Below are positions 29,763-45,548 of a stretch of DNA of 64,000 bases, in pieces. How positions within the stretch are numbered: position 1 is the first letter of the stretch; every line of letters starts with the position of its first letter. The notes under the pieces were generated by a model, which did not search any database, was not told where the DNA came from, and saw only the letters and a list, made by a program, of their open reading frames with translations. The stretch covers positions 15,376,001 through 15,440,000 of the forward strand of contig OZ024748.1 of the NCBI GenBank assembly GCA_964016885.1, written 5' to 3'. A program made the translations under genes and the position numbers. The DNA is from Eledone cirrhosa. Its lineage: Eukaryota.

Positions 29763-29958
29763 TAGAAAAATGTTCAAGACCCCGACGGCAGAGCTCAAGC
29801 CGTTTCGGCAGCTATTTCTGGACTGAGATAGCCGTCGAAACGTTTGAGCTCTGCCGTCGGGGTCTTGAACATTTTCCTATTACCCACTCTACTACCCAAA
29901 GTATTAAGTACTCCGGTGCGTTATGGTCCACCTGGGTCCTTACCACACTTTCTTCGTT
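29763..29958 (+). mobile_element. (TA)n-embedded hairpin+tail element, copy A
   Basis: ~117-bp hairpin (29763-29879) followed by an ~80-bp tail shared with copies B-E. Confidence 0.85.
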
Positions 29959-32012
29959 ATATATACGTATATGCTATATATATGCTATATATGCTGTATA
30001 TGCTATATATATATATATGAATATCTAAGTATATATTGACAGACAATTCAAGATATTTGCAATAGAGTGCTGTATATACACATAAATGCATTTAGTCGCT
30101 TCATATACATTATTATCAACATATTGAGAAATAGCACGTAGTATAATTATTCATTTCTATAGAAATTATTATATACACCCGTAATTCCACTATTACAAGA
30201 ATACAACTATGTACATACATACATAGTCATAAATACATACACATATACACATACGCACATACGTACATACACCATATACACACACATACATGCATACCAT
30301 ACGTACATACATACACACATGCATACATAGTCATACATATATACATACGTTCAAATACAAGGATACATATGATATGCCTATATACATATGTAGATACATG
30401 CATTCTATTATATCTATACATATTCACACATGTACACATACATATATACACATGTACACATACATATATGCATATGTACTGTCTGCTCTGAATAAAAAAA
30501 AAAGGAAACGAGAGAAGATCTTTACGTATGCAATAATGCAAATAAGTACCGTGTACATATACATATATACACATAAACATACACTCAAATACGTACACAT
30601 GTATCACATACATACACATACATATTCATATGTACACACAAAGACATGTGTATCATACACACGCAATACATATATACACACTCACTCACACACATATACA
30701 TATATTCATATATCCACCACACAAAGATATGTGCACAATACTCATATAGACATGCATGCATATATACATACATATATACATATATATATATATACATACA
30801 TACAGGAACGTGTGTGTACTTACATGTACCTATACAATTCGTGCGTAATGTTTATATGCTGAAATGTTGATATCACACACATACATACATACACACATTC
30901 ACACACAAACAAACACGCACTCACACGTGTATAACGGCACAGACAAAATACACAAAACACACCACACAACAAATGTATACAAAGTTCTTTTAACCTACCC
31001 TGGTTCGAATCTCCGTGTAAATTCGACAATCTTATCCTACAGCCTTTATACACTCACATATATGTATATACATATATACACATAGACATATATATACATA
31101 TATGTATAAGTATATATAATATATATATATATATATATATCTCTATATATATTGCCCGTACGTATTCTGGTTAGTCCACAAGGTATAATAATATGGATAC
31201 TACAACACGCCGATTCTGCTCTCGCTCTCTCTCTCTCTTTCACTCTCCGTATTTCTCTCTCCATATATATATATATATATATATATATATATATATATAA
31301 ATATATATATATATATATACACACACGTATCCCTCTTTCAGTATCTCTTTCTCTCACTATATATATATGCATATATATATATATGTATCTCTCTCTCTCT
31401 TTCTCTCACTATCTCTTTCCCTTTCTATAAATAAATATTTATTTATATATATGACTCTCTCTCTCACTCTCTCTCTATATTTATCTGTCTCTCTATCTAT
31501 CTATCTATCCCTCTCCCCTTCCAGTCAATTGCTGTTTCCAACTCCCATTACTACACAGGACAGCTCCGTATACACAGCGGGGAAGCGATCCCGGCATGTG
31601 ATAACTACAACAGGGAATTCTCCAACGTGACGGGATAACAAATTTTTCAAAAATAAAAACAAGGATGGTTGATGAAGATTCCCACACGCCCACCCCGCCC
31701 CGTCACCACAGTGTAGAAAGTGTGACACAATATGACAGAAGAAATATAGACCCCCCTCTTAGCTTTATCTTTCATCCTTACCGGGTCGATAAAATAAAGT
31801 ACCAGTCACGCACTGGGGTCGATTTAGTCGACTTTCCCCTCGCCTCAAAATTAACCGGCCTTGTGTCTAAATTAAAAACCATTATTTTTATTATCATTTA
31901 CAATAAGTGACATAACTGGAGGAAGGGTGATTAGAGTAATGTGAAATGGACATCTAAGCCTCTGGTGTTAAGTTTGCGATGTGTGTGTGTATGTGTGTGT
32001 GTGTGTGTAGAC

Positions 32013-32130
32013 ATGTGGCACAGTGGTTAAGGTGTTCGGTTCACGATCATATAAAGGTCGTAAATTCGATTCCCGGTGGCCCATTATCTCGTTGAATAAA
32101 GAAGAGACTTTATTTCACGTTGCTTCAACG
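32013..32130 (+). mobile_element. tRNA-derived SINE head
   Basis: TGGCACAGTGGTTAAGG A box, TTCGATTCCC B-box-like motif, ACTTTATTTCACGTTGCT core. Confidence 0.7.
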
Positions 32131-32373
32131 TCGACTGAGCTGGAAGGAGGCGGGTGGGGCGTGAGTAGTACCTGCAATTCAAAAAAGGGCAACCTAGACA
32201 CGCACTCAGGGCTAGTCTTTCACCTTCTGAGACCCTCAACTATATGAAATTTGAGAACTTTCTCTAAAAAAATATTATTATTATTATTCATATTAATTTT
32301 AATGATAAAGAATATATTATATATATATATATATACCCTCACACCCTCTCGGAACTCATCTCCTTCCCACCTG

Positions 32374-32405
32374 TCTTCTGATGAAGGGCTTATGCCCGAA
32401 ACGTC
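32374..32405 (+). ncRNA. Minimal hammerhead ribozyme, family 1 variant, in element 32335-32482
   Basis: UCUU-CUGAUGA-A-GGGC UUAU GCCC-GAAA-CG-UC: compensatory helix II relative to GGAC/GUCC, GUC triplet. The helix I partner appears lost. Confidence 0.65.
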
Positions 32406-43022: not shown

Positions 43023-43478
43023 TTTAAATATCACAAATTCTTGTAATTTCCGTGAGTGGAAATTACAATTGAGAAAAAAGACAAAACAATTTTATCAAGA
43101 AGAGAGAGAGAGAGAGAGAGAGGGAGAGAGAGAGGGAGCGAGAGAGGGAGAGAGAGAATGGGGGGGGGTTAAAATCCTGACCGCGGGCGGCGCCAAGCAG
43201 TTTCGGCTTGTGTTTTTACATCTCTATACCCACTCTGCATCTCCCCGTGCATTTAGTACTCCCCTGATTAGTGGTCTCCACGGTCTCACCACACACACAC
43301 ACCTCCAGTTTCATACATACAGCTTTCTGAATGCATAGTTTGCAAGGGGTACATTTTCGAAAGGTCGGATTACAATTATATTGATAACATTTTTTTTCTC
43401 TCTTTCTCTCTCTCTCTCATGATTTAAATCGTCATTTTCCACTCACAGAAATTATTGGAAGTTACCTGTGATGTTAAA
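43023..43478. mobile_element. Long-TIR element, copy 2, with a different interior
   Basis: ATCACAAATTCTTGTAATTTCCGTGAGTGGAAATTACAATT ... AATCGTCATTTTCCACTCACAGAAATTATTGGAAGTTACCTGTGAT. Confidence 0.6.
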
Positions 43479-43911
43479 ACGAAAGATTATCTGTCATGTA
43501 TCGGCTAAAGTCGGGACTTTTTTTCATATTTTAATTTTTTTTTTTTTCGTTTGTTTCGCTTACCTGTATTTTTTTTAAGTTGGAAGCTAAGAAAAGCCCC
43601 CCATGCCCCGGGTAGTCAGTCACCTTGTGGTAGAAATATAATAATGCCTGTATCCGCCGCTCCTATGTATACATCAAAGCAAATGATGCAAGCTTAAGAA
43701 AACTAAACGTAGAAGTTTGTAATAAAACGAGGACGAATTATTTATTCTTCTGTCTAAAATGTTGTGTCTGTGTGTAGTTACCGGTGTATTTTCACTCCTT
43801 CCCCACCCCTCCGTCTCTCTCTCTCTCTCTCTCTATATATATATATATATATATATATATATATATATATATATATATATATATATACACACATACATAC
43901 ATACATACACA

Positions 43912-43988
43912 CAGGGTGTTCCCAAAAATGTACACACGCTTCAACAGTATTCTAATCAAAGTATGTATACATTTTAGGGAACACATTG
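43912..43988. mobile_element. Tc1/mariner-like MITE
   Basis: CAGGGTGTTCCCAAAAATGTACACAC ... GTATACATTTTAGGGAACACATTG. Confidence 0.7.
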
Positions 43989-45406
43989 TGTGTGTATATA
44001 TATATATATATATATATCCCTCTCTCACTCTTTCTTTCTGTATATATCTATTCCCAATCTCTTTCTCTCTCCCTTTCTCTACCTATATCTACTTGACTAT
44101 CTATCTTTTTCTCTACATGTCTATCTTTGTTTAATTTTTCTCTCCTATTACGAATATACCAATTATTTCCAGCATAGTTACGTCCCTTTACGGTCTGAGT
44201 TCAAATCCCGCCGAGGTTAACTTTGCCTTTCTTCCTTACGGGGTCGATAAAATAAAGTACCAGTAATGTACTGGATAATTGCCGGCCTTGTGCCAAAAGT
44301 AGAAACAATTATTGTTGTAAATCTTTCATTTCTATCCATCCAATCTCCCCTCTTCTCTAATTCATTATTCCACACTAAAAACATGTTTTATTCTTCACAC
44401 AGCAATGTTGTCTGTTGTCGTTTCATTCGGTTTCTCACTGTTCTCAGTTCAAATCTCGCCTAGGTCAACTCAGTACTGGATCGACATAATTGACTTCCCC
44501 CGCACAAAATGGCGACCTTGTGTTGGAAAGTGCTCTTTACGTTCTGAGTTCAAATCATGCAGAGGTCAAGTTTACCTTTCATCATTCCGGGGGTCAATAA
44601 AATAAAATACCAGTTGAGTACAAAGTTGTATTCAACTGGTACTAGACTTTCTCTCAGCCTGAAATTGCAGGCCATTGGGATTGGCAGTATCGGTAGAAGG
44701 TCGGACGCCATGCTTTGCAGCATAGAGTTACGCCCCTTTACAGTCTGAGTTCAAACCCCGCCGAGGTTAACTTTGCCTTTCATCCTTACGGGGTCGATAA
44801 AATGAAGTACCAGTAATGTACTAGTATAATTGCTGGCCTTGTGCCAAAAGTAGAAACAATTATTTATCTATCATGCATTTTTCGGTCTTTCCTAATTATA
44901 TATAACTTGATTTCTTTGCGATTTCACAGACATGGAAAATGATATATACGCACATACACACACCAAGACCAACCACACACACACACACACACACACACAC
45001 ACTCAGACCAACCACACATGCAGGTACACACAATACATGCACATACACACACCAAGACAAACCATACATGCATGTACACACACACACACCAATGACACAC
45101 ACAGACCCAGCCTATCCATACATGCATGCACACAAGGACTGACGGCACACACATATACACACCTCTTATGATATAAGAACTACTTTAATGTATATATTAA
45201 CTTACATAAACACATAAGAACACATAAATATACGTGTTGGGTTAAGTATGCAAGCATATTTCTGTGTGTATGTTTGTAACTGTGTGTTTGTGTGTGCATC
45301 CGTTTATAAGTGTTTATGTAGATCAAGAAATAGATATACACACGTACGTTTAAATAACTATACACACAGGCATGCAGATATTTGTATGTATATATATATA
45401 TAATAT

Positions 45407-45548
45407 GCAAGAGTTGGGACCCCGACAGCTGAGCTCTTGCCGCTTCAACAGCTAAATCCAATTCATATTACAACACTCTACTACCCCAACTATCGAGTAT
45501 TCAAGTGAGTAATGGTCTAACAGGTTTTTACTGCATTCATTTTGATTT
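45407..45548 (+). mobile_element. Decayed hairpin+tail element, copy E (one arm deleted)
   Basis: GGACCCCGACAGCTGAGCTC..GCCG.TTC.ACAGCTA plus CACTCTACTACCC..TATCGAGTA tail; between TA tracts. Confidence 0.7.

What the first reader, a model, noticed from the sequence alone, without database searches (positions are those of the whole stretch)
29763..45548. Five-copy hairpin+tail family with arms that covary within each copy and only half a hammerhead
Seen: copies at 29763, 36709, 41404, 41994 and 45407, all in (TA)n. The outer stem differs between copies A-D yet is symmetric within each (TGTTCAAGACC/GGTCTTGAACA; AGTATGACC/GGTCATACT; TGTTTGACC/GGTCAAACA; GAGTCAGGACC/GGTCCTGACTC). Read outward, the arm is GCUGUC-GAAA-CGGC-(nnGAGCUCn)-GCCG-UC, a canonical HHR 3' half with a GUC triplet, and the central hairpin occupies the helix II position. 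The CUGANGA strand is absent, replaced by the mirror of the other strand. Architecture (~80-nt tail plus fold-back) parallels 61322-61741. Inference: fold-back inside helix II of a parental HHR, or a trans-cleaved substrate half.
Basis: partly seen in the sequence, partly recalled or inferred. Interest (0 to 1): 0.75.

Follow-up and report, generated by a model that had tools for sequence, protein, structure and literature searches.

The report
Retrotransposon stubs starting inside a ribozyme
These five hairpin-plus-tail repeats are short stubs of a Penelope-like jumping gene with an estimated 100,000 copies in this genome, and they carry only half a hammerhead motif because copying likely ran off the capped start of an RNA that begins in the middle of that motif.

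Summary
The five copies are real and belong to a genome-wide family (about one per 28 kb). Their parent is a 3.4-kb Penelope-like retroelement of the Hydra clade (RT plus C-terminal GIY-YIG). The arm is the end of its pseudo-LTR; the 80-nt tail is the start of its 5' leader. Short arms begin at one site inside loop II and carry a non-templated G there (84 of 100 direct joints), the known mark of a copied cap. The half hammerhead is therefore best read as the 5' end of the element's transcript. The hairpin is rebuilt at each insertion: 38 different joints in 58 copies, arms of one subfamily in 36 of 37, exactly one tailed arm in 63 of 66. Two cDNAs primed from opposite target strands fit this; snap-back from one strand does not. 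No RNA data were available.

The parts
29762..29959 (+). Copy A: inverted tail-less arm (about 29762-29824, sense on minus), tailed arm (about 29826-29879) and 80-nt tail (29880-29959)
   Evidence: long copy with the same outer stem in L291
36708..36904 (-). Copy B: tailed arm from the inferred start site at 36847 down to 36788, tail 36787-36708, inverted tail-less arm about 36848-36904
   Evidence: long copies of this type L275, L285
41404..41598 (+). Copy C: inverted tail-less arm (41404 to about 41460), tailed arm (about 41458-41518), tail 41519-41598
   Evidence: nearest long copy L281
41993..42173 (-). Copy D: short tailed arm starting at the predicted cleavage site (42093-42073), tail 42072-41993, longer tail-less arm on plus (about 42102-42173) that starts about 10 nt upstream of the start site
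   Evidence: nearest long copy L201
45404..45548 (+). Copy E: older copy; inverted tail-less arm (about 45404-45459) joined to the last few bases of the pseudo-LTR and the tail (about 45462-45548)
   Evidence: no close long copy among those fetched
36807..36835 (-). 3' half of the hammerhead fold in copy B (helix II 3' strand, GAAA, helix III, GUC); predicted cleavage after 36807
36847..36847 (-). Inferred capped transcription start (A of AGTCC) inside loop II of the parental fold
   Evidence: 5'-end pile-up and non-templated G; not measured on RNA
61322..61741 (-). Unrelated family with the same layout (inverted arm, direct arm, about 85-nt tail) and a complete CUGAUGA hammerhead on both arms; comparison only

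Best explanation
The five repeats are short insertions of a Hydra-clade Penelope-like retroelement, each made of one or two copies of the pseudo-LTR end plus an 80-nt tail, and they likely arise when reverse transcription starts near the 5' end of the element's capped RNA and runs off it. Shown: the arm and tail are the 3' end of a 3.4-kb RT/GIY-YIG element and, in tandem copies, continue without a break into a 231-nt leader and the ORF; long copies hold the full hammerhead fold with a U3-A8 or C3-A8 core; short arms begin at one site in loop II and carry an extra G. Inferred: that site is a capped RNA polymerase II start, so the RNA's 5' end holds only the 3' half of the ribozyme. Inferred: the element's protein nicks both strands of a (TA)n target and primes two cDNAs, one at the pseudo-LTR end and one 80 nt further on at the tail end; both run towards the cap and are joined end to end, which gives a hairpin with one tailed arm and a new joint each time. 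Less certain: both cDNAs are copied from the same RNA molecule, which would explain why the arms match by subfamily and why only one carries the tail.
For: Parent and continuity: (start site to ATG 231 nt in 12 of 15 tandem copies). Hydra motifs RWR, DKT, CxCx5C, CxxC, CxH and no CCHH (against passages of PMC8557442). Full fold: 3,956 matches, control 0; MFE fold of L281 is the three-way junction; 92% of cells paired and 6 pairs changed on both sides in 16 copies. Start site: 49 of 89 arm ends within 5 nt; base before it is G in 84, C in 9, A in 7 of the first 100 of 279 direct TA joints (T excluded by the pattern), G in 0 of 85 long copies; untemplated G is attributed to cap copying in PMC3287187. 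Two cDNAs: 38 joints in 58 copies, tail-less arm longer in 27, tailed in 17, equal in 14; arms of the same subfamily in 36 of 37 against 12.4 expected; one tail in 63 of 66 two-ended insertions not selected on the tail. In vitro a Poseidon element cuts and extends both strands and starts at two internal sites that bound the tail (PMC11167929).
Against: The start site and cap are read from DNA joints only. ORF-bearing copies do not stop at this site (0 of 24; 16 run further upstream), which a simple capped-monomer model does not predict. Rare variants shared by both arms of a copy are too few to show a single RNA template (3 shared of 35 and 39 non-CpG variants, p about 0.04, and one of the three sits next to a CpG). 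Rfam reported no hammerhead match in 7 long copies and Pfam no match to either ORF frame. No tree was built for clade placement. 21 of 58 hairpins could not be typed exactly on both arms and were left out of the subfamily count.
Confidence: 0.8

Rival explanations
1. One cDNA folds back on itself at its 3' end and is copied again (the first reader's fold-back; self-priming was also proposed in PMC3846280 for Penelope inverted junctions).
For: Arms match by subfamily (36 of 37). Some joints such as GAGTCC fit a 3-4 nt snap-back loop. 17 of 58 copies have the tailed arm longer, as snap-back from a tail-primed strand predicts.
Against: In 27 of 58 copies the tail-less arm reaches further, and a tail-less strand cannot template a tail (also window copies D and E). 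About 11 of 58 joints have both arms reaching the first or second base with 0-1 unpaired bases; two have the extra G on both arms.
Confidence: 0.1
2. The half hammerhead at the RNA's 5' end is a working substrate that the enzyme strand of the 3' pseudo-LTR cleaves across the transcript or in trans, giving unit-length or circular templates.
For: Helix I-III pairing is kept across subfamilies. Direct TA joints show a small excess at the cleavage site: by hand 13 of 59 sites, plus 4-5 with one extra G, against 4-6 at neighbouring positions. Long copies ignore the capped start, as a circular or multimeric template would.
Against: Only 2 of 89 arms start at the cleavage site. The core is U3-A8 in 71 and a C3-A8 mismatch in 27 of the first 100 long copies (hand count). 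In the capped RNA the strand needed for helix II is predicted to fold into its own hairpin. Read-through of tandem copies would supply two whole ribozymes without any split form. Cleavage was not needed for insertion in vitro in PMC11167929.
Confidence: 0.2
3. The hairpin plus tail is a fixed non-autonomous unit (MITE, TIR element or Helentron-like) that moves as a whole.
For: Top hits to copy B are 95-97% identical over the whole 185 nt, and 25 or so of those selected copies share one or two loop types.
Against: In genome order the joint varies (38 types in 58); arm lengths vary independently; solo arms with or without tail are common (79 one-ended groups); the sequence is the end of an RT element.
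Confidence: 0.02

Closest known systems
Hydra clade of C-terminal-endonuclease Penelope-like elements (Craig et al. 2021, PMC8557442; passages and supplement parts seen)
   Same: Single ORF with RT then GIY-YIG; DKT, CxCx5C linker, CxxC and CxH motifs, no CCHH; (TA)n targets; partial tandems; inverted 5'-truncated copy; tail on one end; hammerhead fold in the pseudo-LTR.
   Different: All Hydra hammerheads listed in their File S2 have a CUGANGA core and loop II of 10 nt or less; this family has U3-A8 or C3-A8, a loop of about 33 nt holding the inferred start site, and a 5-bp helix III. RWR in place of RWK. About 3.4 kb with a 1.2-kb 3' UTR against mostly under 3 kb; tail 80 nt against 30-40. 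The listed Hydra-1_Obim hammerhead is a different sequence.
Poseidon element PAc of the green anole (Frangieh et al. 2024, PMC11167929; parts 1-2 of 4 read)
   Same: Both target strands cut and extended; two internal RT start sites that bound the tail; tail lies just downstream of the pseudo-LTR.
   Different: Different clade; PAc's ORF starts inside the hammerhead and its core is canonical; the parts read do not describe cap-terminated stubs.
U3-A8 hammerheads of Schistosoma Cercyon Penelope-like elements (Cervera and de la Pena 2014, PMC4209133; part 1 of 4 read)
   Same: Same core covariation (U3-A8 for C3-G8); many truncated single copies and opposite-strand pairs.
   Different: Those are minimal motifs without a stable helix III; no start site in loop II is described in the part read.
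Non-LTR retrozymes (bioRxiv 10.64898/2026.07.22.740005; part 1 of 5 read)
   Same: Short non-coding derivatives of Penelope pseudo-LTRs tied to type I hammerheads.
   Different: Retrozymes are tandem units each with a whole ribozyme; these stubs are inverted pairs or solo arms with half a motif, and each outer-stem type A-D has long parental copies.

Membership tests
Penelope-like element, EN+ | ORF with RT and GIY-YIG endonuclease | tested here: met
   L096: FDIESYY, MGATDS, YRDD in one frame; VIYQC and YIG in the next frame, one frameshift between. Pfam gave no hit, so this rests on motifs.
Penelope-like element, EN+ | Pseudo-LTR from partial tandems, inverted truncated copy, tail at one end | tested here: met
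Hydra clade | C-terminal EN, DKT, CxCx5C linker, CxxC and CxH, no CCHH | tested here: met
   against PMC8557442; only one cysteine inside the GIY-YIG core
Hydra clade | N-terminal RWK motif | tested here: inconclusive
   RWR at residue 36 of L096, a conservative change in one copy
Hydra clade | (TA)n target preference | tested here: met
Hydra clade | Canonical hammerhead in the pseudo-LTR (described as universal, but not the basis of the clade) | tested here: not met
   Fold present, core U3-A8 or C3-A8; 8 canonical matches against 3,956
Hydra clade | Groups with Hydra in an RT tree | not tested
   No reference proteins were loaded
Type I hammerhead ribozyme (parent) | Three helices around the core with A15.1-U16.1 and H17 | tested here: met
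   sequences are related, so the changed pairs are few independent events
Type I hammerhead ribozyme (parent) | Watson-Crick pair between positions 3 and 8 | tested here: inconclusive
   U3-A8 in 71, U3-G8 in 2, C3-A8 mismatch in 27 of the first 100 (hand count)
Type I hammerhead ribozyme (parent) | Self-cleavage | not testable with these tools
   Only an indirect small excess of 5' ends at the site
Type I hammerhead ribozyme (five window copies) | Core strand present in cis | tested here: not met
Non-LTR retrozyme | Tandem units each with a whole hammerhead | tested here: not met
MITE / TIR element / Helentron | Fixed unit with fixed ends moving as DNA | tested here: not met
   Variable joints and arm lengths, RT parent

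The most novel reading that the evidence does not exclude
This family places its promoter inside its own ribozyme, so the mRNA begins with the substrate half and ends with the whole attenuated U3-A8 ribozyme. Two reverse transcriptases copy one RNA from sites 80 nt apart. On the capped mRNA this leaves 100,000 hairpin stubs; on a second RNA form, cut at GUC and made circular or multimeric, it gives the long tandem copies that pass the start site. The stubs would then record, base by base, how Penelope elements make their inverted repeats and tails.
Probability: 0.3. Interest if true: 0.68.

Novelty: new variant of a known kind. Interest (0 to 1): 0.48.

Why it matters
How Penelope-like elements form inverted repeats and one-sided tails is named as open in PMC8557442, and PMC3846280 proposed self-priming on an antisense template. 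This family offers thousands of short joints that point instead to two cDNAs from capped sense RNA, and it names exact sites (start, cleavage, two priming points) for a 230-nt in vitro test. It also shows that hammerhead searches tied to CUGANGA miss a large family. The element class itself is known and has been noted many times in this genome.

Tried and rejected
Canonical parent searches: CTGANGA within 30 nt of the arm gave 11 matches, none with a helix II; CTGANGAGAC within 90 nt gave 4, of which L042 and L044 look like old, diverged relatives with a canonical core. Rfam: no hammerhead among the 150 listed window matches (376 lower ones not shown) or the 133 matches in 7 long copies. Pfam: nothing. 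The repeat finder was swamped by microsatellites. RNA runs: no RNA holder listed, so expression, start site and cleavage were not tested and read laying was not used. Type II hammerhead (core after the cleavage site), HDV-like or pistol ribozyme, and a polymerase III B-box reading of GTTCGGATC were considered from recall and dropped once the parent showed the type I core upstream. The count of loops under 3 unpaired bases (34 of 58) was set aside because many such joints still allow a 3-nt snap-back. 39 of 128 rows (5' end past +43) were dropped because many were TA-repeat artefacts. Two passages of PMC3088659 gave nothing on U3-A8 activity. Literature searches showed no paper on a start site inside loop II or on cap-terminated Penelope stubs; subscription journals, Repbase and Dfam were not searched, and bioRxiv supplements were not visible.
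Full report
Observation. The five copies, their (TA)n flanks, the four outer stems and the half hammerhead are in the sequence as described. A, B and C are long hairpins with an 80-nt tail; D has one long arm and a 22-bp stem; E has one arm and the tail. The element at 61322-61741 has the same layout and whole CUGAUGA motifs but no sequence match to A-E.

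Extent. Copy B matched 40 of 40 scored places over its full length, out of 3,179 candidates. Fifty-nine 10-kb regions (57 at arbitrary places, 2 beside the window; 590 kb) held 22 match groups, about 21 insertions, which scales to the order of 100,000 copies in 3.0 Gb. An exact-anchor pattern for the A/B/C-type hairpin with tail gave 2,251 matches, control 0.

The parent. Two flank copies in L005 and L007 shared sequence upstream of the arm. Searching with it gave 1,761 candidates, including an inverted pair 3.4 kb apart. That locus, L096, holds an ORF with RT motifs and, after one frameshift, a GIY-YIG domain, then a 1.2-kb 3' UTR ending in arm plus tail; a tail-less inverted copy sits at the 5' end. 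The protein has RWR, DKT, CxCx5C, CxxC and CxH and lacks CCHH, the features given for the Hydra clade in passages of PMC8557442. Pfam gave no hit and no tree was built. In copies chosen only by the ORF start, pseudo-LTR and tail run straight on into a leader and the ATG. The tail is thus the leader segment between two 3' end points, as reported for PAc in PMC11167929.

The missing half. Searches for a CUGANGA parent failed. Long copies instead read CCCC-YUGANAA-G-YU-CRGCUA and pair with the arm. A pattern leaving positions 3, 7 and 8 free gave 3,956 matches, control 0; by hand the first 100 rows are 71 U3-A8, 27 C3-A8, 2 U3-G8 and 0 C3-G8. A canonical pattern gave 8 scattered matches. Sixteen copies picked to span subfamilies keep 92% of cells paired, with five helix II pairs and the 3-8 pair changed on both sides while loop II diverges; these are few independent events. 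L281 folds into the three-way junction; L127 and L185 gave partly different minimum-energy folds. Rfam did not detect the motif. U3-A8 is known from Schistosoma Penelope-like elements (PMC4209133), but every Hydra motif in File S2 of PMC8557442 is canonical with a short loop II. Outer-stem types A to D each occur in long copies; E has no close one among those fetched.

Why half. Among arms not selected by my queries, 49 of 89 begin within 5 nt of the A of AGTCC/AGTTC in loop II, 12 begin further up, and 2 at the cleavage site (39 further rows dropped as largely TA artefacts). The base before that A is G in 0 of 85 long copies. In copies joined directly to (TA)n it is G in 84, C in 9 and A in 7 of the first 100 of 279 rows, across three subfamily groups (T was excluded by the pattern, and a few rows belong to one tandem array). 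In hairpin joints it is G in 22 of 39 arm ends, 8 of them not explicable by the other arm. An untemplated G at full-length 5' ends is attributed to copying of the cap (PMC3287187). The site resembles the TCAGTY initiator (recalled), and lies 231 nt before the ATG in 12 of 15 tandem copies, with no upstream ATG in L127. I infer a capped start inside loop II. The stubs are then cDNAs of the first 60 or 140 nt of the element's RNA.

How the hairpin forms. Sixty hairpins were fetched in genome order from the first 100 rows; two near-duplicates were dropped. The 58 left have 38 different joints. Both arms are of one subfamily in 36 of the 37 that could be typed exactly (12.4 expected, maximum 22 in 10,000 permutations). 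The tail-less arm reaches further in 27, the tailed arm in 17, equal in 14. Among two-ended insertions not selected on the tail, 63 of 66 have exactly one tailed arm, 1 has none, 0 have two and 2 were unclassed. A fixed unit is excluded by the joints. Snap-back from the tailed strand cannot give a longer tail-less arm, and a tail-less strand cannot template a tail. Two cDNAs primed from opposite nicked strands and joined at their ends fit all counts and match the two-strand, two-site activity of PAc. One RNA copied twice would explain the one-tail rule, given that these RTs lack RNase H (recalled), but shared private variants are too few to prove it. PMC3846280 instead proposed self-priming on an antisense template.

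Results against a simple model. ORF-bearing copies do not stop at the start site: 0 of 24 begin there, 16 run upstream into a further unit and 8 begin downstream (29 loci examined, 5 without a direct upstream piece; Fisher p 2e-9 against the short arms). Long insertions may use multimeric or circular RNA, or an efficient jump. Direct joints show a small excess at the predicted cleavage site: by hand 13 of 59 sites in the first 100 rows, plus 4-5 with one extra G, against 4-6 at neighbouring positions.

Earlier notes. The scan has filed Hydra stubs in this genome many times. One note reports the one-tail rule, which I confirmed independently of it. Others report a small bulged hairpin behind the end points; both end points here are followed by such a predicted hairpin in L127. 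A sequence look-up and a word look-up for the U3-A8 core and capped start returned nothing.

Verdict. A known kind of element with a distinct variant: non-canonical core, inferred start site inside the ribozyme, and very many cap-terminated stubs whose joints bear on an open mechanism. Identity is near certain; the start site is well supported from DNA alone; the single-RNA and circular-template steps are hypotheses.

Noticed in passing
window 20241-20420 and 61322-61741: A second fold-back family with a complete CUGAUGA hammerhead; the 20241 copy has one arm joined directly to the tail, like copy E.
   Followed up: partly
window 37017, 4588 and 1062 (minus strand): Further CUGAUGA...GAAA motifs with a paired helix II start, from other repeat families.
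   Followed up: no
window, about 20 places such as 37130-37204, 44793-44871, 29278-29356: A very common short interspersed repeat, often starting right after (TA)n, also in most fetched loci.
   Followed up: no
L042:1444-1584 and L044:1489-1626: Old, diverged relatives of this family with a canonical CUGAAGA core and an 8-bp helix II in L044, suggesting the core changed from C3-G8 to U3-A8 and then to C3-A8 in one subfamily.
   Followed up: partly
L127, just after the pseudo-LTR end and just after the tail end: Both 3' end points are followed within 4-6 nt by a similar predicted bulged hairpin; the second lies beyond the tail, so tailed arms may need RNA from tandem parents rather than from stubs.
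   Followed up: partly
G000:C3:187250084-187250331: Four tail-less arms in tandem with a 74-nt period, each starting with the extra G.
   Followed up: no
L116-L145: Many ORF-bearing copies have complex 5' ends with inverted pieces of the 3' UTR or ORF, and none begins at the inferred capped start.
   Followed up: partly
window 48260-50600: A long tandem array with a 12-nt period.
   Followed up: no
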